From Podarcis muralis (taxonomy: Eukaryota): a DNA stretch of 64,000 bases. The stretch is taken from NCBI RefSeq assembly GCF_964188315.1, contig NC_135655.1, positions 81,406,001-81,470,000 on the forward strand, written 5' to 3'. This document shows, piece by piece, positions 8,001-59,179 of this stretch. The notes under the pieces are model-generated. The model was not told the origin of the DNA. It saw only the letters and a list, made by a program, of their open reading frames with translations, and did not search any database. Each line of letters opens with the position of its first letter. The stretch's first letter is position 1. A program made the translations under genes and the position numbers.

Positions 8001-9221
8001 AGGAAAAGGTACATAGCTGTGCTCACAAGTGCTAATACTATATGTTTAGGAAAAATTCCAGGAAATTATTATTTTTTGCCACAAATGTTGAGAAATGTCC
8101 TACATGTCAGTCTTGGTTTTCCAGTTCTCTCACACAACCACTTCATTCAAGTGCTAAGCTATTTGATTTATTTTATTACAGTTCTTCATTATTTTCAGGC
8201 CCAAGTCCTCAGAAAGCAACATATACTTTCTCCCAACACTTTTTCCCACCAAAAAAAGAGGGAGGGGGAAACTGGACAATGCTTATAAAAGTACTGAGCG
8301 TAAGCCAGATTTCTTCAGCAAGGACCACACGCCACCCCACTTCAGGGCCCCCACCCCTGGAAGCATTTATTACCACTAACTAGCCACTTCTCCTATGAAG
8401 TTAAGCTGACCCTGTATAGAAACTGGCCCTACAACAGTCAGGGGCGTGTGTCTTAATCCCCAATTAGTAATGTAACCGTCCCTAATTAACATGAACACGC
8501 ACAGATGCTGTGTGCTTCCCAGTGCAGACTTGCACTGCCTGAAATAATTCTGGGGATATTTACCTAGAAGAAAGCCGACTTGAACTCTGTGGGGCTGACT
8601 TCAGAGTAAACATGCTCAGGATTACACAGCGCATGAAGCATTCTCGCATGGGGTCGTTGCCATAACGCAAAGAGGCGCTCAAAGTGAGGCAACGCGGCCA
8701 AGTTCCTGAATGTACGCTTTCTCAATGCCATTAGCGGCAAAGTGGGGATGCGACAGGGAGTTGGGGAGGGGGGGGAGATAGAAGCAACCTCTTTCTCTTT
8801 CACCAGCGAGCAGCGCCAATACTCACGCGGCGCGCGGGCTCTCCTTCCTGCCGGCAGCGCCAGGCGGAGCGGCGGTTGGTTGCGGCTCAGCCTCGGAGCC
8901 GGGCACCGACGGCGTCTCGGGCCCCTGGTTCTGCCGGGCGCCAGGGCTACTGCGGCGCCGGCGGGGATATTCGGCCTTCCTTCGGCGTGAGGCGGCAGCG
9001 GCGGCAGCAGCGGCGGCGGCGGCGGCCGCCCGTCCCCGGTCTCGGCCTCCTCGGAGCACCCGACTGCCGCCGGACTCCTCCCCCTGTCCAGCAGCGGCTG
9101 CGGGAGTGGGCGGGGGACGCCGGCGGCCGCTGGGAGGCGGAGCGCTCGCCTCTTCGCTCTCTCGTGGCTCCTGCTGCGGCTCTTCCTCCTGGGTCTCCGC
9201 CTGCTCGGGCGCCCCCGGCAT
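568..9221 (-). CDS. ZFP91: E3 ubiquitin ligase / zinc finger protein ZFP91, 5' partial: complement(join(8827-9221,7673-7698,4654-4869,3857-3893,3068-3154,2628-2756,568-618)); the zinc-finger exons lie beyond the left edge
   Basis: The spliced translation contains SRVLRGGRDRGRA12SRRRKAEYPRRRRSSP, RPSRGWRS, SRSKTGSLQLICKSEPNTDQL, MLISEEEVPFKDDPRDETYKPHL and KRGRRRKDDKSPRLPKRR, matching mammalian ZFP91 as I recall it. All seven exons have canonical splice sites with consistent phases (2,1,1,2,2,2,2). Confidence 0.96.
880..1171 (-). mobile_element. Sauria SINE (BovB-related tail), 3'-incomplete
   Basis: Reverse complement of the GGGACGCAGGTGACACTGTGGTCTAAACCACTGAGCC head and conserved body. Confidence 0.85.
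2014..2177 (-). mobile_element. Short 3' fragment of the young L2 family with a long (AAT)n tail
   Basis: Near-identical to 37790-37885. Confidence 0.85.
2628..2756 (-). CDS. ZFP91: ZFP91 exon 6 (EAPKQKKKTGKGKEEKEKQKEIKVEVEVKEE...DPPRK)
   Basis: 129 bp, TTTCTGCAG acceptor, GTGAGT donor. Confidence 0.95.
3068..3154 (-). CDS. ZFP91: ZFP91 exon 5 (SDEEEMLISEEEVPFKDDPRDETYKPHLDR)
   Basis: 87 bp, AG/GT borders, near identity to the mammalian peptide. Confidence 0.95.
3857..3893 (-). CDS. ZFP91: ZFP91 exon 4 (EVTEEHSSPAGIS)
   Basis: 37 bp, CTTTTAG acceptor, GTAAGT donor, phase 1 to 2. Confidence 0.92.
3973..4190. mobile_element. Tc1/mariner (Tigger-like) MITE, TIR CAGTGGTACCT, TA TSD, in ZFP91 intron 3
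   Basis: TA-CAGTGGTACCT...AGGTACCACTG-TA. Confidence 0.92.
4654..4869 (-). CDS. ZFP91: ZFP91 exon 3 (DPKEETEEEE...SEPNTDQLEF)
   Basis: 216 bp, AG/GT borders, conserved RPSRGWRS and SRSKTGSLQLICKSEPNTDQL. Confidence 0.95.
5312..5447. mobile_element. Palindromic hAT-type MITE, TIR CAGGCATAGGCAAAC, exact 8-bp TSD GGTGAGAG
   Basis: TSD at 5304-5311 and 5448-5455. Confidence 0.93.
7673..7698 (-). CDS. ZFP91: ZFP91 exon 2 (26-bp micro-exon, (A)CLDKTVVK(D))
   Basis: TTTCGTTTCAG acceptor and GTAAGA donor; bridges phase 2 to phase 1 as required; resembles human LCIEKVTTDKD. Confidence 0.85.
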
Positions 9222-10150
9222 CAGAGCAGCTGGCGGCGGCGGCGGCTCAAAGGGCGGCCCAAGCGGCGGCAGCGGCTGCCCCTCCTGCTCGTGACAGCAG
9301 CGCCAAGCGCTCCCCCCGCCTCTGTACAGCGGGCCCCCGCCCTCCCGCGTCGAGCGAGGCCAATCAAGAGCGAGTTCGGAGTTCAGGCCGGACGCAAGGT
9401 CTCCCCCCTCGCTCTGCGCCAGCCAGTCAGAAGGGAAGGTGCCGGACACACCCCACCCACCGCTCTCCCGACTCCACCAATCGGCGTCGCCAAGGCCGGC
9501 TGGCTCAGGACGCTCCAATCAACGGGCGAGCTTCGTCGGGGGCGCGCGCGCGCTGTCGGAATCCTGACCGTGGCGCGCGCGTCGTAGAGCGGAGCCGTTT
9601 AACAGTTATCTCTCGCGCGCCAAATGTCCTTCGTTACCCTGAGGAAGGGGCATCGTTGCGGAGGCTTCGCGCTCGCGCTCTCTCTCTCGAGCTGCCGCTC
9701 TCTCAGTGCCGCGCAGTGACGCTGTTCCCGCGAAGCCCTCAGTCCTGCCGTTGTCGCCCCCTCCCCCCCGTCCGCTCCGCAGTTTGGGCCGCTCTGGTAT
9801 CCCACAGCCTCTTGCTTTGACGAACGAAACGAAAAGATTCGGTACCTTCCGAAAACCTGTTTCCCTGAGCTTCACGCCGTCCGCGTTTCTCGGAGCTTCA
9901 CGTTCGGGAAGGATTTAAAAGGGGGGAAAAAAACATTGTAGCTTCTCCTTTAAGAAAAAAAAAGCACCGTCGTGTGGCGGGTGAAAGTCGGTGACAAAAT
10001 GGCGTCCAATGAGGAGAGGCGGGACTTGCGCAGGACGCGCGCATTTCCGCTCTCGAGGCTAGAACTGCGCAGCTGCCGGCCGAGCCGGCATTATGGGAAT
10101 TGTAGTTTATAGTATATACATAGTTACGCGTACAAGCCGAGGAAGAGTGA
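8600..10150. promoter_or_regulatory. CpG island / ZFP91 promoter, probably bidirectional
   Basis: Very high GC and CpG density. CCAAT boxes near 9360, 9477, 9515 and 10006; E2F-type GCGCCAAA 9617-9624; YY1-type AAAATGGCG 9996-10004; ZNF143/THAP11-type GCATTATGGGAATTGTAGT 10088-10106. Boundaries approximate. Confidence 0.85.
8827..9221 (-). CDS. ZFP91: ZFP91 coding exon 1 (ATG at 9221; MPGAPEQAETQEEE...RKESPRA)
   Basis: ATG in a CpG island; donor GTGAGT at 8826-8821; poly-Ala and RRRKAEYPRRRRSS motif. Confidence 0.93.
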
Positions 10151-11699: not shown

Positions 11700-14136
11700 G
11701 GAAAGGTTCTCCAGGTGTCCCTAATTTCCAGGATTTCCAGGGACATCCCTGCTTTAGAGAAGCCACCCTGGTTTTTTATTAGATCCCAGAATGTCTCGCT
11801 TTTCCTTAGGACATCCCTGTTTTCATTGGAGAAATGTTGGAGGCTATGAAATTATCCAACCCTTGAACTGTCTGAAAGCAATCCTGTATAAGGAAGAGGT
11901 TTTTTAATATTTAATGTTTTATTATGTTTTTATATTTGTTGGAAGCTGTCCAGAGTGGCTGGGGCAACCCAGTAAGATGTGTGGGGTAAAAATAGTAAAA
12001 TTATCGACAGGGATGCCCAATATCCCCCTTACTTTTTATAACAGTCCTGGAGGTTTTGTTAAACATGATTAGAGGGGACCAATTGGTCAAAGGAGTTCAG
12101 GTCGGAGCCAGAAATTACAAATTAAGGGCATTCGCAGATGACCTGGTATTGACTTTGCAACAGCCAGATACTAGTACCAAAAGAGTATTAGAATTAATTG
12201 AGATATTTGGTCAGGTAGCAGGATTTAAACTGAACAAACAAAAAACTAAAGTGTTGGAGAAAAATCTAACAATGGCAGAAAAAGAGAAGTTTCAGAGTGA
12301 AACAGGTTTAGTAATAACAAAAAAGGTGAAGTACCTGGGTGTGAACTTGACTTCTAAAAATGTGAATTTATTTAAAGACAATTATGATAAATGCTGGACA
12401 GAAGTGAAGAAAGATCTAGAAACATGGTCAAGGTTGAAACTTTCCTTGTTAGGTCGAATTGCTGTTATTAAGATGAATGTATTGCCTAGAATGTTGTTTT
12501 TATTCCAGACACTCCAGATCTTGGACAAGATGGACTGTTTCAAGAGGTGGCAAAAAGATATATCCAAGTTTGTCTGGCAGGGCAAAAAACCCAGAATAAA
12601 CTTTAAGATCTTAACTGATGCAAAAGATAGAGGGGGGTTTGCCCTGCCGGACCTGGGACTTTATTATGAATCGGCAGCGTTCTGCTGGTTGAAACAATGG
12701 CTGCTTCTTGAGAACACAGACATTTTGGATCTGGAAGGGTATGACAATAGATTTGGTTGGCATGCATATATATGGTATGACAAGGTAAAAATACATAAAG
12801 GTTTCAAAAACCATATTGTCAGGAAAGCACTATACAATGTTTGGATAAGATACAAAGATCTATTGGAAAGTAAAACTCCCAGGTGGCTATCACCAATGGA
12901 AGCTAAAGAGACAAAAAAACTTAATATGGAGTCCAAATGGCCAAGATATTGTGAAATCTTAGAGCAAGATGGTGAAAGAGTTAAATCACAGAGTTATGAT
13001 AAATTAAAGTCTAAAGTACGAGATTGGTTGCACTACCTTCAGATAAACGAGGTATTCAAACAGGACAGGAAAATAGGTTTTCAGATGGAGAGGTCGAAAT
13101 TAGAAACAGAATTGTTAGAACCCAATACTAAGAACTTGTCAAGAATGTATAATTTGCTGCTGAAATGGAATACGCAAGATGAAACAGTAAAATCAGCTAT
13201 GATCAAATGGGCACAAGACATAGGTCATGACATTATGTTTGATGACTGGGAAAGGTTATGGAATACTGGTGTTAGGTTTACGGCTTGTAATGCTTTGAGA
13301 GAAAACATAATGAAAATGATCTATAGGTGGTACATGACCCCAGTCAAACTTGCAAAAATTTACCATTTGCCCAATAACAAATGTTGGAAATGTAATGAGA
13401 CTGAAGGTACTTTCTATCACCTTTGGTGGACCTGCCCGAAGATTAAAGCCTACTGGGAAATGATCTATAATGAAATTAAAAAGGTCCTTAAATGGACATT
13501 TTCTAAAAAACCAGAGGCTTTTCTCCTGGGCATGGTGGGCCAATTGGTGCCAAGGAAGGACAGAACTTTTTTCATGTATGCTACCACAGCAGCAAGAATT
13601 CTTCTGGCAAAGTATTGGAAGACGCAGCAGCTACCCACTCTGGAAGAATGGCAAGCGAAGGTGATTGACTACATGGGAATGGCAGAGATGACCGGCAGAA
13701 TCCGTGATCAGGGGAGTGAGACAGTGGAAGAAGATTGGAAGAAATTTAAAATATACCTTAAAAATTGTTGTAACATTGAGGAGTGCTGAGATGTTATGGT
13801 GTTAAGAAACAGAGAATTGCAGCTGTAAATCATAAATTTAAGGAAATTATAATGAAGATGAGTTAATTAATTAAATGAAGGGTTGCTGTTAAAAGGGAAA
13901 AATAAGGATGCAGAAAAAGGGAGGTATGGGGAAGTCCGGGAAATAAGGTGAAGGAAAATAAGTTTAGGAAATTATACATGTTTATTTGTTTGTATGTTTT
14001 GTTTTGTTTTATTGTTTGTTTTTATTACATGTTTGGAAAATTAATAAAAATTATTTTAAAAAAATATAAAAATAGTAAAATTATCATTATGGAATAGGAC
14101 GTCCCTATTTTCATTGGAGAAATGTTGGAGGGTATG
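11700..14136. mobile_element. Composite non-autonomous element: ~40-bp direct repeats (11808-11850, 14097-14136) flanking an L2 3' tail, interrupted by the L1
   Basis: GGAC(A/G)TCCCT(G/A)TTTTCATTGGAGAAATGTTGGAGG(C/G)TATG occurs twice; L2-type tail at 11900-12005; left boundary approximate. Confidence 0.6.
12006..14066 (+). mobile_element. 5'-truncated L1-clade LINE with 19-bp TSD TAAAAATAGTAAAATTATC (11987-12005 and 14067-14085)
   Basis: Begins at RQGCPISP; FADD RT motif; C-terminal CWKC...HLWWTC zinc knuckle; open frame to the stop at 13789; 3'UTR with AATAAA and an A-rich tail. Confidence 0.95.
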
Positions 14137-34844: not shown

Positions 34845-35426
34845 ATGCAGGGCTGACTTTAAGGTTTCTAGAGCACAAAAATAACAAGAGAATATGGCTA
34901 GTCAGTGCCAACAATGGCAACTCTTCCCAGTAGGTCTTGCCCCAATGAAGCAGTTGCAAGGTCTGAAGGCCCCCACCTTCCCATCACTCTCTAAGGCTCC
35001 TCCTCTCCAAGGTCTTTCCCAAGCAGTTGCAAACTGTGTTTGCGCACAGCCAATCTCTGCTCTGCTCTTTTCATTTCTCAGCATGATCTAGGAGACCAGG
35101 GGGGAGGAGAGCTGGTTGCAGCAGGAGGGAGAGACTCCCTAGATTCTTCAGCAGCCTGTCTTCACTCTGCCTCTTGGCCAACCTCCTCTCCAGCCTCTGC
35201 TTCAGCCTTGGAGACTGAACTGCTCTCTGCCACGGCCTCTTCCTGCTCACCACACCCTGTTACCTCTTCTGCTTCTGACACCTCTTCCTCCCAGTCTTCT
35301 TCCTCTTCTCCCACTGACCGCTCACTGTTGTCCCACCACCAGTTCCCTGGCTGTGAGCCTTCTTCCCTTGGGAGTTCCCCGGTTGGTGCCTCCCATCCCT
35401 CCTCTGCATCCTGCCAGTGTATGACA
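34845..35426 (-). mobile_element. Solo-LTR-like element, family B (~580 bp), carrying a decayed acidic ORF
   Basis: Minus strand starts TGTCATA; imperfect 5-bp TSD CTTCC/TTTCC; left end less certain. Confidence 0.65.
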
Positions 35427-36435
35427 TTTCCCCACAAAGCAGAGTAATTTCTTATTAAATAGGCCAATGTTATCTAATCTCCCTGCAAAAAACTCCAACT
35501 CACACACATTGATCGCTTGAGAAACAAGTTAGCTGGAAACACCCAAGTTGACAAGCTGACAACTTTCTTTTTGTACTTTATTATTTTTAATTTTTCGCCT
35601 CCTTCCCCCTCTGTTTTGTATCACATCTCTGCCAGATGAAAAGCTCTGGAGACTCAAAAGCTTGCCATGCTTTTGTGACATTATGGTTGGTCCCAGTATA
35701 AGTGTTGTCCAACTGTGGAAAAGAAGTGTCGTTTTTAATGACAAAAAAAATCACTGTAGTTTTTCTCTCTTCAACACCCTTAGGGAGAAAGCTCCACTGT
35801 ACTAATTAAATACTTAAACAGGAAATTGTCCAACATTTTGTTTGACTAAATAATGGGGAACCAATCCCCCTACTTATTTCAAAAATTCTTGTACATGCTG
35901 TAAGTATATTGAATATGTTAGGCAATACTAAGTACTGTAGATAAAACTGCAGAAGATCAGCCAGGCTTTCCAGGTCTACTAGTTTAAAAATAGAGCTCAA
36001 AACAATTCTCCATCATCCGCTGACTTGAATTAGGCTGCTGAGATCAGGAAACCTGGGTGGTGGTAGTAGGGGGAACAGGAATAGAATTGGGTGAAAACTC
36101 CAGTTCTGGTACCGTACTGAAAATAATCCTCAGGCTAAGCTAGTGCTCAGAGGTGCCACGTTCTATAATTGTGTCCATCTTCCAGGAAACACCATTTTGC
36201 TGCTGGCTCTGGTTGGTGGACCTCAGGTTTCTAGTGAAAAACAAGTTGATCCTTCAAACCTAAAGTTTGCCTGCCTCTGCCACAGATGATCAGAGCGGTG
36301 AAGCCTGTTCAGAGGTGCATTTAGGGCAGTGCAACTGGTTCCCCCACACAACTGACATAGAGCAGAACGGAAGGTGAGAGGCAGATTTGTGTGGATTCTG
36401 GCATTGCTGAAATTTCAAAGGCCCAAATCCAGCCC

Positions 36436-36941
36436 TGTGAGGCTTCAGGGAATTGACTTTCTCCTCCTGTGGCAGTAGATAAGAAGATCAAAGAAAGCAA
36501 CGTCTTAACAGTTAGGAACTTTAATAATGACAGTGGGAGAACAAAGAACACATCTCCTAGACATGGTGGGCGCTCCCAATTAAGGATCCAATCTCCTTAC
36601 GTCTCTATTAATCTGCATCACTCCTACGTCTTGTAATCTGAGCTTGTACCCTGTATATTTTCTGTTCTGAGACTTTCTGAGCTCTTCTTGACCTTGGGCT
36701 GAGCAGAGGAATGCTGTCCAGAGACCATGAAGCCATTAACCCTCTCTCTTCCAGTGTTTCTCCTCCTAGTTGTTCCGGTATTTCCCAGCTTCTGCCTTCT
36801 GAACTATGTCCCTCTGCAAACCACTCTTCCAAATCTATACTGTCCTCCTGCTTCTGGGAAGATTCAGGAGCGGGAGCAGGGGGAGGGGGTGGCTCCCACC
36901 ATTCCTCCTCAGTGCAGCCCTCCTCAGCACGGTACCTGACA
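36436..36941 (-). mobile_element. Solo LTR, family A (506 bp), TGTCAGG...CCTCACA, imperfect 5-bp TSD AGCCC/ACCCC
   Basis: TG...CA inverted termini; homology with 63329-64000 starts exactly at the terminus. Confidence 0.8.
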
Positions 36942-37572
36942 ACCCCTGAGGCTGTTGTAAATTGACACAACTACAAGGTTAAGAAGACCATTTGAGGGCT
37001 GACCCTAAGACTGCTATGGGGGCTACCTCAACTAAGTGGATTAAAGGATCTCAAACAGTAGGAAAGCTCTGCTGCTACTCAAGGGAAATAGAAGCATCAT
37101 AACTGGTGGTTCCTCTTGTGAGATGTAGCAGGCACTATCGGAAACAAGTGCTGGGCTATGAATAAGATACTGCCTGTGGTTTGTGGTGACTCATCTCCCT
37201 CAGCTTCCTTTGAAAAATGCAATCAGCAATAAAATATGTACTCTGGGGCTGGTGAAGATCTCTTGCATTGCTTTCCTATCAACCAAATGAGCCCTTCCTT
37301 GTTTTGTTAAATGCCGTAAAAAGAAAACAAGCAACTGTATATACAAATTCACCCCAGTGGATAGAACGTGTGGAAGGTGGAAAGATCTCTCACATATGTC
37401 TCTGACCTGATATTGCTATTGCAATGGTATGTGCATACCCACCCCGTCCTTTCAGCTGCAGACAGGGAAATTGTGCGATAGATGTCACATAACCACAGCA
37501 GTGCTTGCAGCAAGGAAATGCAATATTAAGCAATTTCAGAGAAAGTTCTGTTCCTATCAGCAGGGCCAGTTG

Positions 37573-37764: not shown

Positions 37765-40700
37765 AATAATAATAATAATAATAATTTATTATTTATACCC
37801 CGCCCATCTGGCTGGGCCTCCCCAGCCACTCTGGGCGGCTTCCATAAAAACCAAAAATACAATAAAATATCACATGTTAAAAACTTCCCTGAACAGGGCT
37901 GCCTTAAGATGTCTCTTGAATGTCAGGTAGTTATTTATCACTTTGACATCTGCTGGAAGGGCGTTCCACAGGGCGGGCGCCACTACCGAGAAGGCCCTCT
38001 GCCTGGTTCCCTGTAGCTTTGCTTCTCGCAATGAGGGAACCGCCAGAAGGCCCTCGGCGCTGGACCTCAGCGTCCGGGCAGAATGATGGGGGTGGAGACG
38101 CTCCTTCAGGTATACTGGACCGAGGCCGTTTAGGGCTTTAAAGGTCAGCACCAACACTTTGAATTGTGCTCGGAAACGTACTGGGAGCCAATGCAAGTCT
38201 TTCAAGACCGGTGTTATATGGTCTCGGCGGCCGCTCCCAGTCACCAGTCTAGCTGCCGCATTCTGGATTAGTTGTAGTTTCCGAGTCACCTTCAAAGGTA
38301 GCCCCACGTAGAGTGCATTGCAGTAGTCCAAGCGGGAGATAACCAGAGCATGTACCACTCTGGCGAGACAGTCCGCAGGCAGATAGGGTCTCAGCCTACG
38401 TACCAGATGGAGCTGGTAAACAGCTGCCCTGGACACGGATTTGACCTGTGCCTCCATGGACAGCTGTGAGTCCAAAATGACTCCCAGGCTGCGCACCTGG
38501 TCCTTCAGGGGCACAGTTACCCCATTCAGGACCAGGGAATCCTCCACACCTTCCCGCCTCCTGTCCCCCAAAAACAGTACTTCTGTCTTGTCAGGATTCA
38601 ACCTCAATCTGTTAGCCGCCATCCATCCTCCAACCGCCTCCAGACACTCACACAGGACCTTCACCGCCTTCACTGGTTCTGATTTAAAAGAGAGGTAGAG
38701 CTGGGTATCATCCGCATACTGATGAACACCCAGCCCAAACCTCCTGATGATCTCTCCCAGCGGCTGCATGTAAATGTTGAAAAGCATGGGGGAGAGGACA
38801 GAACCCTGAGGCACCCCACAAGTGAGAGCCCAGGGGTCTGAACACTCATCCCCCACCACCACTTTCTGAACACGGCCCAGGAGGAAGGAGCGGAACCACT
38901 GTATAACAGTGCCCCCAGCTCCCAGCCCCTCAAGACGGTCCAGAAGGATGCTATGGTCGATGGTATCAAACGCCGCTGAGAGATCCAGCAGAACTAGGAA
39001 ACAGCTCTCACCTTTGTCCCTAGCCCGCCGGAGATCATCAACCAGTGCGACCAAAGCAGTTTCAGTCCCATGATGAGGCCTGAATCCCGACTGGAAGGGA
39101 TCCAAATGGTCCGCTTCTTCCAGGCGTGCCTGGAGTTGTTCGGCAACCGCTCGCTCAATCACCTTGCCCAGGAATGGAAGATTTGAGACTGGGCGATAGT
39201 TGGCCATCGTGGCCGCATCTAAAGATGGTTTTTTAAGAAGCGGTTTAATAACCGCCTCTTTCAGCGGGTCTGGGAAGGCTCCCTCACGGAGGGAAGCATT
39301 CACCACCCCACGAAGCCCATTGCCCAGTCCTTCCCGGCTAGCTTTTATAAGCCAGGATGGGCAAGGATCCAGGAGACAGGTGGTTGGTTTCACTCGTCCA
39401 AGCAGCCTGTCCACATCCTCGGAGGTAACAGATTGGAATTGATCCCACTCAACTTGACTAGACAGAACTCTAGCACTCTCCCGCCCCGGCCCTGCTCCCA
39501 CGGTGGAGTCTACTTCTTCCCGAATCTGAGCGATTTTATCTGCAAAAAACTTTGCAAAATCATTGCAGGAGAACATGTGGCCCGTACTGGGCCCCGATGT
39601 TGCAGGTGGTTCCGCTAAATTGTGAACCACCTGAAAAAGTCTCCTGCTGCTGTTTTCTGCAGATGCAATAGAGGCGGTGAAGAAATTCTTCTTCGCCGTC
39701 GCTATCGCCACTTGGTAGGCTCGACGTTGAGCTCTAACCTGTGTCCGGTCAGATTCGGAATGAGTTCTCCGCCACCGGCGCTCTAGCCGTCTCAACGATT
39801 GTTTCATTGCCCTCAGATCCGTGGAAAACCACGGGGCTGTCCGGGCTCCATGCAATCGGAGAGGGCGCTTCGGAGCCAAACAGTCAATAGCCCTGGTTAA
39901 CTCCACATTCCAGCGGGCCACCAGGGAATCAGCTGAAAGGCCATCAACATGGGATAAAGCATCCCCTACCACTCTCTGGAAACCATTTGGATCCATTAAG
40001 TGGCGGGGGCGGACCATCCGAATTGGTCCCACCTCCCTGCAGAGGGGATGGGTCGCAGAGAAGTCCAGTTGCACCAGGAAGTGATCTGACCATGGCACTT
40101 CTTTCGTTTCGCTTTTACTTAGTGTCAGATCACCAACATCCATAGAGGTAAACACCAGGTCCAAGGCATGTCCACGGCTATGGGTTGGGCCAGACTTATT
40201 CAGGGACAGCCCCATGGAGGCCATGCTTTCCACGAAGTCCCGAGCGGCCCCTTGTAAGGTCGTGTCGGCATGGATGTTAAAATCCCCTAGGACGACCAAG
40301 CTAGGTGTCTCCAGGAGAACATCCGCCACGACCTGAAGCAGCTCGGGCAGGGAATCCTTGGTGCAGCGGGGAGGTCGGTACACCAAAAGGAATCCTGTAC
40401 TGCCCCTATTGCCCAACTTCCAGAACATGCACTCAGAAAACTGGGTCTTCCCAACAGGACGCCTGGTGCAAACTAATGACTTCCTAAAAATCACTGCAAC
40501 CCCCCCTCCCCGCCCACATGACCTGGGTTGCTGTGCGTAAGAGAAACCTGGTGGACAAGCAGCGGCAAGGACAGGCCCATCTGCTTCATCCAACCAGGTC
40601 TCTGTTATACATGCCAGGTCAAATCCTCCATCCATGATCAAGTCATGGATGGCAGTGGTCTTATGAATCATTGACCTGGCATTGCACAGCAGCACCTTCA

Positions 40701-41381
40701 GGTCATGTGGGTATCCCTTGCTGATTCTAGTATCCATCCGGTCAGGACCAGACCCGGAGGCAGGGATAGTCCTCAGACAACGACTAAACCTGCCTCCTCT
40801 GTAATGATAGGGTCTGGTCTTAGCGTAACTCCTCCTCCTACCCGTGATCACTGAGATCGGTTGTCCCAGTGCATCCTGCCCTGTGGAACATGCCCCAGCC
40901 ATTTTATGGGCTGGGGCCCACTCCCCGGCAGCCCTGAACCCTCCCCCTAAAAACAAAATAACACCTTAAACAAACAACCAAAACCAATAAAACAATACAA
41001 ACGAAAAATGTAAAAATTACAAAAACATCAAAATAAAATAATAATAATAATTTCCCCAAGCCCAACCAACATCCATCCCACCCCCACCCCGCACATACAA
41101 AAAATCCAAAGAATTAAAAAACAAACCAAAAAAACACATTTTAAAAACACTCTGTGCCTCTCCGGCAGTAACAACTGTCCTGGTGAGGCCTGTCAGGCCC
41201 CGCCCTGGGCCAGATGGTAAGTGGCAGGAAGGAGCAGGGCCCTCAAGCACTCACTCAGGGAGTCTTCCTGGGCAGCAGGCCGCAAGCCGCACGCAGTCCT
41301 TATGAGGCCCCAGGCCCCGCCCCAGGCCAGATGGTAAGTGGCAAGAGCAGGGCCCTCAAGCACTCACTCAGGGAGTCCACC
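37765..41381 (-). mobile_element. Apparently full-length L2-clade LINE: ~480-bp 5'UTR, one APE+RT ORF, short 3'UTR, (ATT)n tail
   Basis: The 3' end ...GGAAGCCGCCCAGAGTGGCTGGGGAGGCCCAGCCAGATGGGCGGGGTATAAATAATAAATT(ATT)n is shared with short copies elsewhere in the window; no clear TSD. Confidence 0.92.
37870..40902 (-). CDS. L2 LINE ORF: apurinic endonuclease + reverse transcriptase, 1010 aa from ATG 40902, uninterrupted
   Basis: APE motifs CNARS, ITETW, VYRPP, GDFNIH, PTH..G..LDLVF; RT motifs YRPVSNLPF, QSGFR, LDLSAAFDT, GVPQGSVLSP, YADDTQLY; C-terminal SRLDYCNALY and HWLPV typical of L2. The ORF track start at 40956 is a TTG. Confidence 0.93.
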   Translation of the reverse strand: MAGACSTGQDALGQPISVITGRRRSYAKTRPYHYRGGRFSRCLRTIPASGSGPDRMDTRISKGYPHDLKVLLCNARSMIHKTTAIHDLIMDGGFDLACITETWLDEADGPVLAAACPPGFSYAQQPRSCGRGGGVAVIFRKSLVCTRRPVGKTQFSECMFWKLGNRGSTGFLLVYRPPRCTKDSLPELLQVVADVLLETPSLVVLGDFNIHADTTLQGAARDFVESMASMGLSLNKSGPTHSRGHALDLVFTSMDVGDLTLSKSETKEVPWSDHFLVQLDFSATHPLCREVGPIRMVRPRHLMDPNGFQRVVGDALSHVDGLSADSLVARWNVELTRAIDCLAPKRPLRLHGARTAPWFSTDLRAMKQSLRRLERRWRRTHSESDRTQVRAQRRAYQVAIATAKKNFFTASIASAENSSRRLFQVVHNLAEPPATSGPSTGHMFSCNDFAKFFADKIAQIREEVDSTVGAGPGRESARVLSSQVEWDQFQSVTSEDVDRLLGRVKPTTCLLDPCPSWLIKASREGLGNGLRGVVNASLREGAFPDPLKEAVIKPLLKKPSLDAATMANYRPVSNLPFLGKVIERAVAEQLQARLEEADHLDPFQSGFRPHHGTETALVALVDDLRRARDKGESCFLVLLDLSAAFDTIDHSILLDRLEGLGAGGTVIQWFRSFLLGRVQKVVVGDECSDPWALTCGVPQGSVLSPMLFNIYMQPLGEIIRRFGLGVHQYADDTQLYLSFKSEPVKAVKVLCECLEAVGGWMAANRLRLNPDKTEVLFLGDRRREGVEDSLVLNGVTVPLKDQVRSLGVILDSQLSMEAQVKSVSRAAVYQLHLVRRLRPYLPADCLARVVHALVISRLDYCNALYVGLPLKVTRKLQLIQNAAARLVTGSGRRDHITPVLKDLHWLPVRFRAQFKVLVLTFKALNGLGPVYLKERLHPHHSARTLRSSAEGLLAVPSLREAKLQGTRQRAFSVVAPALWNALPADVKVINNYLTFKRHLKAALFREVFNM

Positions 41382-45136: not shown

Positions 45137-45856
45137 TAATTGTTTAATGTATATTGAAATGGGAAATAAATATATAATGTGCCAGTATGTGACATGACTG
45201 AAAATTTCCATTGAAAACAGCTTACCGGATTAATCATTAATGGGACTGTACCTTTGTAGCTCATTCACAAGGTTTTTAGCTCACAGTCACATGAAAGAGA
45301 TAGTATTACAGGTCTACACATATGCTAATCTGCAAGGCAACCACGGAAGAGAATGGATGTGTTAATCTGTGTGAGCACAAAGCCTGAGCCTAAAAGAGGC
45401 TGCAATGGAGAAGACACTGAGTTTTGATTTTAGCTCTGAATACAATATATTTGTAATCTAAATTATTATGCCTCATGCTGGGAAATTATGCTACTAGGTG
45501 AATGTAACTTTATTTGTTTTACGTTGTTTGGAGTTAAATTCTGTAAGTAAAGTTTTGAACAGATTAGAAAGTTGCATGCTGTTTTTCAAAAAATATTTTA
45601 TAATTATTAGTAATATTTCATAATGATTCACTGACATTTGCATGGGAGGTATTGTATAGGATCTAAAACCAATTCAGTCTGTATTCATGGCGACCACAAT
45701 ATTTACGTGGTAAATTAGATGCATGGGAGTGAAAAGTCTGAGGCTGATAATCAAGTTTCCAGGTACCGTATTTGAATCCCATATGCTCCAGTGAGATAAC
45801 TATGAATTATGTATTGATGTTTAACCCACTGTTTCTTTTGTACAGTAACTGATGCG

Positions 45857-46816
45857 ATGCACTTGGCACTTGCAAACCAGAGCAACCAATCCATTGCCTA
45901 TGAGTTTATCTTCCGGGCATTCTCCGCCATTCCTGAAATCCAGGCTCTCCTCTTCACGTTCTTCCTTCTGCTCTACCTCACCATCCTCTTTGGCAATGTC
46001 TCCATCATCTGGGTGGCCTGCACAGATCATTCCCTACGCGTCCCCATGTATTTCTTCCTGGGCAACCTCTCTTTTCTGGAGATCTGTTACACCACTGTAA
46101 CAGTGCCTCAACTGCTGTCCAGCATCTTAGATGCCCACAGACCAATCCCATTTGCAAGCTGCGGCATACAGATGTTCTTCTTTGTAGCACTTGGCAGCAC
46201 AGACTGTTTCCTGCTGGCTGTCATGGCATATGACCGTTACGTTGCCATTTGCCACCCACTTCGCTACAGCCTCATCATGACCTGGGAGGTATGCACATGG
46301 CTCGTGGTTGGCTCACTGATCCTTGCACTTGTGTTGTCATTGGAGCTGACAGTGCTGATCTTCACCTTGCCTTTCTGTGGCCACCAACCCGAAATCAACC
46401 ATTTCCTGTGTGACGTGCCACCTGTGTTGCGCCTGGCATGTGCCGACACCCGTGTGCACCAGACTGTGCTGTACAGTGTTGGTGTCATGGTCCTAACTAT
46501 TCCCTTCATTCTAATATGCATCTCCTACATCTACATTGTGACTGCCATCTTGCGGATCCACTCAACAACTGGGCGGCAACAGGCCTTCTCCACCTGCTCC
46601 TCCCACTTGACAGTGGTGATCATACAGTATGGGTGCTGCAGCCTTGTCTACCTGCGTCCCAAGACAGATTCGTCAGAAGATGACGATCGCCATCTTGCTC
46701 TCATATACACTTTTGTCACTCCACTGCTAAACCCCCTCATCTACAGCCTGAGGAACAAGGATGTCAAACAGGCTCTAAAGAAGGCCATGGCGGGAACTAA
46801 TGACTCTCAGGTCTGA
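45857..46816 (+). CDS. OR10Q1: Olfactory receptor, family 10, OR10Q1-like copy A (319 aa, intact)
   Basis: GN, PMYFFL, MAYDRYVAIC, STCSSHL and PLLNPLIYSLRNKDV motifs. EINHFLCDVPPVLRLACAD and QYGCCSLVYLRP..SEDDD match OR10Q1 as I recall it. Splice acceptor TTTCTTTTGTACAG at 45832-45845. Confidence 0.9.
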   Translation: MHLALANQSNQSIAYEFIFRAFSAIPEIQALLFTFFLLLYLTILFGNVSIIWVACTDHSLRVPMYFFLGNLSFLEICYTTVTVPQLLSSILDAHRPIPFASCGIQMFFFVALGSTDCFLLAVMAYDRYVAICHPLRYSLIMTWEVCTWLVVGSLILALVLSLELTVLIFTLPFCGHQPEINHFLCDVPPVLRLACADTRVHQTVLYSVGVMVLTIPFILICISYIYIVTAILRIHSTTGRQQAFSTCSSHLTVVIIQYGCCSLVYLRPKTDSSEDDDRHLALIYTFVTPLLNPLIYSLRNKDVKQALKKAMAGTNDSQV

Positions 46817-52770: not shown

Positions 52771-52951
52771 CTACATTTGTGATGATTGCCACATTTACAA
52801 TACAGTGTAACATAGATGTATGGAGAAAGAAGTGAAACATCTGAGGTTGATAATCATGCCAAGAATTTGAGTACCACACATTCCAGTGAAATAACTGAGA
52901 ACAGCATATTGATGTTTAACCCACTGTTTCTTTTGTACAGTGACTGATGAG

Positions 52952-53914
52952 ATGTCCTTGGCACTTGCAAAACAGAGAAACCAATCCATTGCCTATGAGT
53001 TTATCTTCCGGGCATTCTCCACCGTTCCTGAGATCCAGGGTCTTCTCTTCACGTTCTTCCTTCTGCTCTACCTCATCATCCTCTTCGGCAATGTCTCCAT
53101 CATCTGGGTGACCTGCACAGATCATTCCCTACGCGTCCCCATGTATTTCTTCCTGGGCAACCTCTCTTTTCTGGAGATCTGTTACACCACTGTAACAGTG
53201 CCTCAACTGCTGTCCAGCATCTTAGATGCCCACAGACCAATTCCAGTTGCAAGCTGTGGCATACAGATGTTCTTCTTTCTGGCACTAGGGGGCATGGACT
53301 GTTTCATGCTGGCCGTCATGGCATATGACCGTTACGTTGCCATTTGCCACCCACTTCGCTACAGCCTCATCATGACCTGGCAGGTATGCACATGGCTCGT
53401 GGTTGGCTCACTAATGCTTGGTATTGTGGTTTCATTGGAGCTGACAGTGCTGATCTTCACCTTGCCTTTCTGTGGCCACCAGCCCGAAATCAACCATTTC
53501 CTGTGTGACGTGCCACCTGTGTTGCGCCTGGCATGTGCCGACACACGTGTGCACCAGACTGTGCTGTACAGTGTTGCTGTCACAGTCCTGACTATTCCCT
53601 TTATTATAATATGCATCTCCTACATCTACATTGTGACTGCCATCTTGCGGATCCGCTCAACAACTGGGCGGCAACAGGCCTTCTCCACCTGCTCCTCCCA
53701 CTTGACAGTGGTGATCATACAGTATGGGTGCTGCAGCCTTGTCTACCTGCGTCCCAAGACAGATTCGTCAGAGGATGACGACCGCCATCTTGCTCTCATA
53801 TACACTTTTGTCACTCCACTGCTAAACCCCCTCATCTACAGCCTGAGGAACAAGGATGTCAAGCAGGCTCTAAAGAAGGTGATTAGGACCAGAGCTGGAA
53901 CTAGGGTGGGGTAA
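52952..53914 (+). CDS. OR10Q1: Olfactory receptor, family 10, OR10Q1-like copy B (320 aa from ATG 52952, intact)
   Basis: Paralog of copy A (22 aa differences in the first 309 residues); same acceptor at 52927-52940. The ORF track's GTG start at 52940 overlaps the splice site, so ATG 52952 is preferred. Confidence 0.9.
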   Translation: MSLALAKQRNQSIAYEFIFRAFSTVPEIQGLLFTFFLLLYLIILFGNVSIIWVTCTDHSLRVPMYFFLGNLSFLEICYTTVTVPQLLSSILDAHRPIPVASCGIQMFFFLALGGMDCFMLAVMAYDRYVAICHPLRYSLIMTWQVCTWLVVGSLMLGIVVSLELTVLIFTLPFCGHQPEINHFLCDVPPVLRLACADTRVHQTVLYSVAVTVLTIPFIIICISYIYIVTAILRIRSTTGRQQAFSTCSSHLTVVIIQYGCCSLVYLRPKTDSSEDDDRHLALIYTFVTPLLNPLIYSLRNKDVKQALKKVIRTRAGTRVG

Positions 53915-57860: not shown

Positions 57861-58225
57861 ACTCAAATTCTGGATTATAAATATTTAGCAATGAACTGCA
57901 GTTTATCTCTAAACTTTGAGGGCTAGAAACTGAAGCATAAAACTGGGGCTCCCATTAAGCTCTGATAATCAAAGGACTTGTAATCAAAACACAAAGCTGA
58001 CCATTACAGTTTATTAATGAAATCATTTTTGCCTGGTATGAGCACCTGAGTCCTGGCCTTGATGTTCTCATTAGTCAGTGGACTTGATGTTCTTCCAGGT
58101 AGTATGTTTCCTTTCCTGTTGGAGCCTATTTTTCAATATCAGATACATCCAGGCTCTCTAATTAGCACTGATGCTATCTTGTTTTTCATCCTCATTACTC
58201 TGTAGAACGGGAGCTAGTCGGTTGG

Positions 58226-59179
58226 ATGCTCCAGGGGAACTGCACTGCAGTGCTGGACTTCATGCTGTTGGCTTTCCCCACCCAGCCAGAGTGTCAGATC
58301 TTACTTTTCCTGGGCATCAGTGTGATCTATGCTGCCATAATCACAGGTAACGTCCTCATTATGGTAGCTATCTGGGGCAACCCTCACCTACACACTCCCA
58401 TGTACTTCTTCCTGGGGAATCTCTCTGTGGTTGAGCTTTGCTACACAGCAGCTGTAGTCCCACAGATGCTGCTGACCAGCTTGCAGGAGAGGAAGTCCAT
58501 CACTTTTAGAAGTTGCTGTGCTCAGATGTTCTTCTTCATTGGACTGGGCAGTGCCGACTGCTTCTTACTGGCCATCATGGCATATGACCGCTATGTAGCC
58601 ATTTGCAAACCCTTGTACTATACCCTCATCATGACGCAGCAGCTGTGCATTCAGCTAGTGGCTGCCTCCCTGCTGATTGGTTTCTTGATTTCATTCATTC
58701 TGGTGTGGCTGGTCTTCCACCTCCCCTTCTGTGGCGAGCATGGAATTGAACACTTCTTCTGCGATGTGCCACCTGTATCAAAGCTCACCAGTAACAAGAC
58801 CAAGCTCGATGAGGCTGGGGTGTTCCTCAGTGGGATAACGGCCATCGCTGTACCCTTCATATTGATCTGCGCCTCTTACCTTTTCATCGCTGTTACAGTG
58901 CTGCGGATCCATTCTGCAGACAGTCGCCGAAAAACCATCTCCACTTGCTCCTCCCACTTAGCTGTGGTGGCCCTGCAGTACGGTTGCTGCAGCTTCATGT
59001 ACCTGCGCCCAAGCTCCAGCTTTTCTCCAAAGCAGGACCAGATGCTATCAATGGTGTACACTCTGGGTACACCGCTACTTAACCCCATCATATACAGCCT
59101 GAGGAACAGAGAGATGAAAGTAGCCCTGAGGAAAGTCATCAGACACCGAATCTTCCAAAGGGAATCTGAATGCCACTAA
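58226..59179 (+). CDS. OR10W1: Olfactory receptor, family 10, OR10W1-like (317 aa, intact)
   Basis: OR motifs plus LGSADCFLLA, GIEHFFCDVPPV, QYGCC.FMYL.PSSS..PKQD and VYTLGTPLLNP, which match OR10W1 as I recall it; acceptor AG at 58204-58205. Confidence 0.85.
   Translation: MLQGNCTAVLDFMLLAFPTQPECQILLFLGISVIYAAIITGNVLIMVAIWGNPHLHTPMYFFLGNLSVVELCYTAAVVPQMLLTSLQERKSITFRSCCAQMFFFIGLGSADCFLLAIMAYDRYVAICKPLYYTLIMTQQLCIQLVAASLLIGFLISFILVWLVFHLPFCGEHGIEHFFCDVPPVSKLTSNKTKLDEAGVFLSGITAIAVPFILICASYLFIAVTVLRIHSADSRRKTISTCSSHLAVVALQYGCCSFMYLRPSSSFSPKQDQMLSMVYTLGTPLLNPIIYSLRNREMKVALRKVIRHRIFQRESECH

What the first reader, a model, noticed from the sequence alone, without database searches (positions are those of the whole stretch)
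34845..36941. Two dissimilar solo-LTR families carry the same ATG-less acidic/Trp-rich - SPRSRR - basic reading frame starting at LTR base 2
Seen in the sequence. LTR-A (36436-36941, minus) is open from its second base for 110 codons: VRYRAEEGCTEEEWWEPPPPP...DLEEWFAEG...LLSPRSRRAQKVSEQKIYRVQAQITRRRSDAD*. LTR-B (34845-35426) shows no obvious DNA similarity but opens in the same register (T-GTC = Val). It reads VIHWQDAEEGWEAP...GNWWWDNSE...EEEEDWEEEVSE...QEAE*RQAAEESRESLPPAATSSPPPWSPRSC*EMKRAEQRLAVRKHSLQLLGKDLGEEEP* (35425-34991) with no frameshift. Both internal stops are TGA, and SPRS-TGC-TGA is what CGC-CGA (RR) gives on CpG decay, restoring SPRSRREMKRAEQ. So the architecture is shared: acidic + W/WW motifs, Pro run, SPRSRR, K-x-x-EQ, basic tail. 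Inference: with no start codon at the 5' end of either LTR frame, this is probably the C-terminal part of an internal ORF (pol/IN tail or an accessory gene) that reads across the PPT into U3, in the way lentiviral nef overlaps the 3' LTR. I know no described protein with this architecture in reptile LTR elements, but could not search.
Basis: partly seen in the sequence, partly recalled or inferred. Interest (0 to 1): 0.78.

Follow-up and report, generated by a model that had tools for sequence, protein, structure and literature searches.

The report
Lizard retrotransposon integrase tail inside LTR
Two old solo repeats in a lizard genome carry a reading frame that, in intact sister retrotransposons, is the end of the integrase gene running into the repeat, and this tail likely helps the element grip chromatin, echoing a layout described for plant centromeric retrotransposons.

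Summary
The frames are real. Both stretches are decayed solo LTRs of Ty3/Gypsy chromoviruses (Tf1/Sushi group) in a Podarcis-type lizard. Across copies, the base-2 frame has no majority stop for 110 codons (A, 26 copies) or 144 codons (B, 30 copies). The window's two B stops are private to it.

Relatives with internal DNA place this frame about 146 nt after the integrase chromodomain, across the polypurine tract. In a young, intact sister family Pol reads in frame into U3 in 25 of 25 junctions. It stops just before a TATA-like box, and its tail is under purifying selection (dN/dS 0.25-0.51 between subfamilies). Tegu, amphisbaenian and cobra gene models show the same junction.

Corrections: the families are related, not independent. 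Most B copies have an ATG at codon 2. The second B stop is not at a CpG site. The nearest A- and B-linked junctions are off frame and decayed.

The solo copies decay neutrally. The function (a chromatin tether through an SPRxRR-helix or HMGN-like RRSARL motif) is inferred, not shown. The layout parallels the plant CRM CR motif, but the chromodomain is kept. New variant of a known kind.

The parts
36436..36941 (-). Solo LTR of family A (Ty3/Gypsy chromovirus, 506 bp, family ends TGTCAGG..CCTGACA)
   Evidence: 2127 first-look candidates, 40 scored at 83-100%; ends and target duplications; fits Sushi att motifs TGTYANR / CNTNACA of PMC3601003
36608..36940 (-). Frame from LTR-A base 2: 110 codons plus stop; inferred relic of the Pol/integrase tail in U3
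   Evidence: family-wide open to LTR nt 332; an A-type LTR follows RT/RH/IN/chromodomain and PPT in L178
36617..36700 (-). SPRSRR motif and following basic stretch (predicted helix) of tail A
   Evidence: S, P and R invariant and E nearly so in 15 natural segments from five LTR types, picked by a motif pattern and so biased
36520..36525 (-). ATTAAA, possible polyadenylation signal of LTR-A, downstream of the frame's stop
   Evidence: function inferred
36942..36946 (-). Target-site duplication, 5' copy (GGGGT)
36431..36435 (-). Target-site duplication, 3' copy (GGGCT, one mismatch)
34917..35426 (-). Solo LTR of family B, part that matches the family (510 bp); its 3' end is damaged or replaced
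   Evidence: 4589 first-look candidates, 40 scored at 78-100%; 3'-end test
34991..35425 (-). Frame from LTR-B base 2: 144 codons plus stop, broken in this copy by TGA at 35162-35164 and 35078-35080
   Evidence: family-wide open to LTR nt 434; stops in 2 of 28 and 1 of 29 copies
34845..34916 (-).
   Evidence: only its first ~25 nt match the family 3'-end profile, E 0.031

Best explanation
Both stretches are decayed solo LTRs of related Ty3/Gypsy chromoviruses, and the frame at LTR base 2 is most likely the relic of the Pol/integrase C-terminal tail, which in intact sister elements reads from the chromodomain across the polypurine tract into U3 and likely acts as a flexible acidic tether ending in a basic motif predicted to contact chromatin. 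Shown: the layout in the intact sister family, selection on its tail, and family-wide openness in A and B. Inferred (about 0.9): A and B parents had the same fusion. Inferred (about 0.4): the basic motif binds nucleosomes, probably the H2A-H2B acidic patch, beside the chromodomain during integration. Only the 3' LTR copy of U3 is in the element's RNA, so solo LTRs keep the frame as a passive fossil.
For: Chromodomain in frame with LTR base 2 in L086 and other decayed relatives. The chromodomain W codon lies 146 nt before the LTR in 8 of 8 young elements, and 145-162 nt in 14 decayed relatives, 8 of them in frame (two of the 8 may be duplicates of one insertion). L178 has RT, RNase H, IN and chromodomain, then a full A-type LTR at 78% over 489 nt. 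L097 has IN and chromodomain, then a B-like LTR start at 72% over 131 nt. Young full-length elements with 94-100% identical LTRs have Pol frames of 1264-1644 codons ending inside the 3' LTR, with the Pfam order PR-RT-RH-IN-SH3-Chromo. 25 of 25 located junctions are in frame and 20 tails are complete. The stop is at LTR nt 353, a TATA-like box at 361 and the self-priming complement at 392, so the tail fills U3. Tail dN/dS is 0.25-0.51 between subfamilies against 1.0-3.3 in shifted frames; Fisher p 0.0004-0.03, or 0.002-0.09 with a transition bias of 3. A versus its sister subfamily: pN/pS 0.47 (p 0.05) against 0.87 and 0.96, with group-level indels of 15 and 6 nt in the frame and 1, 1, 2 and 1 nt after it. 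A-, B- and young-linked integrases fall in one clade, 97/98. Same junction and acidic start in Rhineura, Salvator and Naja models. PRRSARL in the young tail matches the RRSAR core of HMGN that binds the acidic patch (PMC12487698).
Against: The junctions nearest to A (L114/L178, L151) and the only B-like one (L097/L259) are off frame, in copies with other frameshifts too. No full-length element of A or B proper was found. A and B profiles match each other no better than reversed controls (hhalign probability 1.4%). Private indels in solo copies are neutral: in-frame to shifting 6:19 in A and 19:58 in B. Selection tests use few, non-independent pairs, and U3 DNA may be constrained as promoter. 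The window tails have SPRSRR or SPRS, not the HMGN motif. A, B and the young family show no clustering at chromosome ends. In a third family only 4 of 14 junctions are in frame. Most non-squamate hits have short or unrelated sequence after the chromodomain.
Confidence: 0.8

Rival explanations
1. Same Pol tail, different job: the basic end is a nuclear localisation signal or a docking motif for a host transcription factor on a disordered linker, as in the Ty1 integrase C-terminus.
For: Arg/Lys clusters end every tail seen. Ty1 IN has a large disordered C-terminal half (PMC8487063 abstract) and a small targeting domain (PMC7459421, listing only). SP sites next to basic residues suggest phospho-control (recalled). 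Dispersed insertions fit a non-targeting role.
Against: The young tail carries the exact RRSAR core, and a proline-S/T-Arg motif plus helix after a tether is the layout of the plant CR domain (PMC11302176). Neither excludes an NLS.
Confidence: 0.35
2. The frame is a separately made accessory protein, nef-like, started at the ATG at LTR nt 5-7 from a spliced or internally started RNA.
For: ATG at codon 2 in 16 of 21 B copies, in the young family and in three foreign models. In the third family the 215-codon LTR frame stays open although 10 of 14 junctions are off frame.
Against: The ATG overlaps the integrase attachment site, and family A lacks it. Young junctions are always in frame with pol. 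No splice joint into the tail in 4 runs, at depth of only about 1-4.
Confidence: 0.1
3. The frame is a by-product of purine-rich U3 DNA; read-through from pol is tolerated junk with no selected function.
For: 60-65% purines; B's antisense frame is open too; private changes in solo copies are neutral; no Pfam, PDB or Atlas match; tails differ strongly between families.
Against: Composition-matched shuffles are open in only 0.3-0.4%; the open frame is the pol frame; it ends just before the TATA-like box; dN/dS is below 1 in this frame only.
Confidence: 0.07

Closest known systems
[quoted passage not shown]
   Same: Gag-PR-RT-RH-IN-SH3-chromodomain order, TGTYANR..CNTNACA ends, 5-bp target duplication, 10-nt self-priming complement; group known from fish, amphibians and reptiles (PMC4131045; PMC6317226).
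   Different: A 110-215-codon selected tail behind the chromodomain, coded in U3; not mentioned in the passages read.
Plant CRM group A chromoviruses with the CR motif (Cereba, Beetle)
   Same: [quoted passage not shown] The CR domain is TRARAR/K plus a helix behind a poorly conserved tether (PMC11302176).
   Different: CRM elements lost the chromodomain when they gained CR (PMC6317226) and sit in centromeres. The lizard elements keep a Y-W-Y chromodomain and are dispersed. No sequence comparison with CR could be run; likeness is in layout only.
Beet Reina-type Bingo elements
   Same: Chromodomain upstream of the PPT with the ORF extending into the LTR in Bingo1-4 and 7 (PMC3605345), so chromodomain plus LTR read-through is already in print.
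   Different: Plant group II chromodomain; the passages read describe no conserved tail motif or selection.
HMGN / Dsup nucleosome-binding motif
   Same: RRSAR core in the young family's tail (PRRSARLKA) and in an unnamed ENA protein (RRSARIAAR, P0127).
   Different: Absent as such from window tails A and B; binding untested; a five-residue motif can arise by chance in basic tails.
Lentiviral nef overlapping U3 (recalled, no call)
   Same: Coding sequence inside the 3' LTR U3.
   Different: Nef is a separate spliced gene; here the frame is fused to pol.

Membership tests
Ty3/Gypsy chromovirus, Tf1/Sushi group | Pol order PR-RT-RH-IN with a C-terminal chromodomain | tested here: met
   Pfam on L134; RT-RH-IN-chromodomain hits before the A-type LTR in L178 and IN-chromodomain before the B-like LTR in L097
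Ty3/Gypsy chromovirus, Tf1/Sushi group | LTR ends TGTYANR..CNTNACA and 5-bp target duplication | tested here: met
   Ends in A and B copies; duplication in 15 of 19 A copies but only 2 of 6 B copies; motifs from PMC3601003. The young family's ends (TGTGATG..GCACA) deviate.
Ty3/Gypsy chromovirus, Tf1/Sushi group | Self-priming: PBS complementary to the RNA 5' end inside the LTR | tested here: inconclusive
   10-nt complement about 30 nt after a TATA-like box in 2 of 3 young elements; no 5' LTR with PBS found for A or B
Ty3/Gypsy chromovirus, Tf1/Sushi group | RT phylogeny with named V-clade elements | not tested
   No named reference elements were fetched; the tree holds only this genome's copies
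Plant CRM group A (CR motif) | Pol extends into the 3' LTR | tested here: met
   25 of 25 young junctions; inferred for A and B
Plant CRM group A (CR motif) | Canonical chromodomain absent | tested here: not met
   PF00385 E 7e-15
Plant CRM group A (CR motif) | Centromeric accumulation | tested here: not met
   A 1 of 35, B 3 of 38, young 8 of 94 hits within 2 Mb of a contig end, and no central cluster; centromeres are not mapped here
Plant CRM group A (CR motif) | Sequence homology to the CR domain | not testable with these tools
   No CR profile among the families searched; the motif profile found only two lizard-type proteins
HMGN-like acidic-patch binders | RRSAR core | tested here: inconclusive
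   Present in the young family, absent from window tails A and B
HMGN-like acidic-patch binders | Binding to the nucleosome acidic patch | not testable with these tools
   Needs a binding experiment
nef-like accessory gene | Separate ORF on a spliced RNA | tested here: inconclusive
   Frame fused to pol; no splice joint at low depth

The most novel reading that the evidence does not exclude
Squamate chromoviruses evolved, independently of plant CRM elements, a U3-encoded second chromatin reader: an acidic/Trp tether ending in an arginine anchor (SPRxRR-helix, HMGN-like RRSARL in young elements) that works with the chromodomain to steer integration. Tail differences would then set each family's niche, as hinted by a third family with a degenerate chromodomain and a 215-codon tail that piles up at chromosome ends (30 of 108 against 5 expected).
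Probability: 0.3. Interest if true: 0.68.

Novelty: new variant of a known kind. Interest (0 to 1): 0.42.

Why it matters
How vertebrate Gypsy elements choose insertion sites is little studied, and their integrase is usually taken to end at the chromodomain. Here thousands of lizard solo LTRs carry the fossil of a further, selected module coded in U3, laid out like the plant centromere-targeting CR domain. It gives a short natural peptide to test for nucleosome binding, and several families in one genome to compare. It also explains why lizard gene models pick up these acidic or basic peptides. The two window copies themselves are inert relics.

Tried and rejected
No family match for the tails: Pfam, longer homologues of tail A, ESM Atlas (best 0.86, a lead at most), PDB sequences. 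The motif profile found only a Podarcis gene model and an unnamed fragment.

The complex prediction of the tail A motif with lizard H2A-H2B returned no verdict (score 0.02); it is not evidence either way.

PPT-anchored patterns for B found 5 and 2 sites, none with an internal region. A search with the B-like junction found no second junction among 40 scored. No RNA holder is listed for the window's LTR-A, which says nothing on expression. The scan's earlier findings were empty.

Rejected: a DNA transposon with TGT..ACA ends (relatives carry RT and paired LTRs); the LTR frame itself being a chromodomain (the real one lies upstream); independent origin of A and B (bridging family; tree).

Ten literature searches found no description of this tail in reptiles. 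Repbase, Dfam and the subscription papers on vertebrate chromoviruses (Butler 2001, Kordis 2005, Gao 2008, seen only as references) could not be read and may mention the overlap. No supplements were opened.

Full report
Observation. Both stretches are repeats: 2127 and 4589 first-look candidates, 40 scored each. I aligned the top 30 loci of each, less 4 segmental duplicates for A, giving 26 and 30 copies with mean pairwise identity of 88% and 79%. Copies begin TGTCA and end TGACA; 15 of 19 A copies and 2 of 6 B copies with both ends have a 5-bp duplication. No shared flanks were found among these top copies apart from the duplicates, so they are solo LTRs. The window's B copy matches its family only to about 34917.

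Is the frame real? In A, no codon column of the base-2 frame has a stop in most copies before nt 332, while the other five frames have 2-5 such columns in that span. In B the first is at nt 434, though one antisense frame is open too. Dinucleotide shuffles are open in 0.44% (A) and 0.34% (B, no stops); the window's B copy with two stops is not significant alone (10%). Its stops are private (2 of 28 and 1 of 29 copies), and the second is not at a CpG-type site in other copies. 16 of 21 B copies have an ATG at codon 2. Private indels are neutral (6:19 and 19:58, against 3:10 and 3:12 in the non-coding part); shared ones are too few to judge (3:2 and 5:4).

What lies upstream. A PPT-anchored pattern gave L086, where a chromodomain is in frame with LTR base 2. 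A protein search with it found decayed relatives and young intact families. L178 has RT, RNase H, integrase and chromodomain, then a PPT and a full A-type LTR (78% over 489 nt). L151 is similar at 69%. L097 has integrase and chromodomain before a B-like LTR start. The chromodomain W codon lies 145-162 nt before the LTR in 14 decayed relatives; 8 are in frame, but L114/L178, L151 and L097 are not (a few more junctions were missed by the pattern). In a DNA tree of 36 integrase-chromodomain stretches, the A-linked, B-linked and young rows share a clade (97/98); the young rows have a long branch and odd composition, so their place is less sure. A and B profiles do not match each other beyond reversed controls. 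The family of L097's LTR bridges them: it aligns to B over 142 residues (E 2e-19, reversed controls about 1e-4 to 1e-5) and shares the SP..EQKAQR block with A.

Intact sisters. Seven young elements have LTR pairs 94-100% identical and Pol frames of 1264-1644 codons ending inside the 3' LTR (Pfam order). Of 28 stretches examined, 25 had a located junction; all 25 are in frame and 20 tails are complete at 111-120 codons. These were chosen mostly from hits with long open frames. The stop lies 8 nt before a TATA-like box and about 40 nt before the self-priming complement, so the tail fills U3. Between subfamilies, tail dN/dS is 0.25-0.51 against 0.10-0.18 for integrase and 1.0-3.3 for shifted frames; close pairs are uninformative. 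Fisher p is 0.0004-0.03, weakening to 0.002-0.09 with transition bias; the 31-codon motif block has 1-3 replacements, too few for significance. For A versus a sister subfamily, pN/pS is 0.47 (p 0.05). This Pol is in UniRef at 98% identity as a Podarcis muralis Gypsy protein with the tail included. A stranded RNA run shows sparse sense reads over the internal region (199 reads laid, 29 of 30 bins) and no joint into the tail.

Range. Among 77 single- or two-stretch hits read from the best 150, three squamate models show the same junction and an acidic start: Rhineura floridana (with a basic end), Salvator merianae and Naja naja. Most others have short or unrelated ends, often from chimeric gene models. 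A third Podarcis family has a degenerate chromodomain and a 215-codon acidic-then-basic LTR frame, in frame at 4 of 14 junctions because of variable G runs.

Mechanism. Shown: pol reads through the PPT into U3 in the young family, and the tail is under selection. Inferred: the same for the parents of A and B. Inferred and untested: a disordered acidic tether presenting a basic motif to chromatin. The grounds are the RRSAR core known to bind the acidic patch in HMGN (PMC12487698, passages) and the tether-motif-helix layout of the plant CR domain (PMC11302176, passages, itself a modelling result). An NLS or transcription-factor dock, as in Ty1 (PMC8487063, abstract), is nearly as likely. A, B and the young family are dispersed, which argues against centromere targeting.

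Known versus new. Read-through of pol into the 3' LTR is in print for plant CRM group A (PMC3059260, passages) and, with the chromodomain kept, for beet Bingo elements (PMC3605345, passages). Group membership rests on PMC3601003, PMC6317226 and PMC4131045 (passages). Passages of three preprints added nothing on this tail. Ten searches (listed under tried and rejected) found no reptile description, but the key older papers, Repbase and Dfam were out of reach. The nef comparison and the acrocentric build of lacertid chromosomes are recalled, not from a call. Verdict: a real fossil of a selected integrase tail; new variant of a known kind; interest 0.42.

Noticed in passing
L145:364-6970, L214:477-6949 and about 6700 first-look candidates: Third Gypsy family (777-bp LTR, no Pfam chromodomain hit, 215-codon LTR frame): 30 of 108 top hits lie within 2 Mb of a contig end against 5.2 expected (C13, C18, C20 and small contigs left out). 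G runs at its PPT vary, so pol and the tail are in frame at only 4 of 14 junctions; biology or assembly error is unresolved.
   Followed up: partly
L197, L199, L119, L125, L126, L128: Other chromovirus lineages carry an acidic, Trp-rich stretch between chromodomain and PPT, i.e. before the LTR; L128 also has an SPRSRR block further on. The PPT/LTR border seems to have moved relative to the tail.
   Followed up: no
P0168, P0002, P0006: Podarcis gene models (a SPARC model, a gag model, a receptor model) begin with or include these LTR tails; probably annotation artefacts, possibly exonisation.
   Followed up: no
L131:824-9902: A young element is inserted inside the pol of a third-family element.
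   Followed up: no
G000 C20, loci L262-L283: Many near-identical copies of one B-like solo LTR with shared flanks on C20, and many Gypsy hits on C20 generally; it may be a repeat-rich sex chromosome (inference).
   Followed up: no
window 37870-40965 (minus): 1031-codon open frame that reads as a non-LTR endonuclease-RT, apparently intact, next to LTR-A (named from reading, not searched).
   Followed up: no
window 45818-46816, 52913-53914, 58172-59179 (plus): Three intronless frames of about 333 codons with olfactory-receptor motifs (named from recalled motifs); the first two are about 92% alike.
   Followed up: no
window 8500-9900 and 11999-13789: A GC-rich island with long open frames, probably a gene start, and a 596-codon LINE RT fragment.
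   Followed up: no
L138:2-4329: Retrovirus-like pol and env frames (839 and 486 codons) near a decayed chromovirus junction on C7 (named from reading).
   Followed up: no
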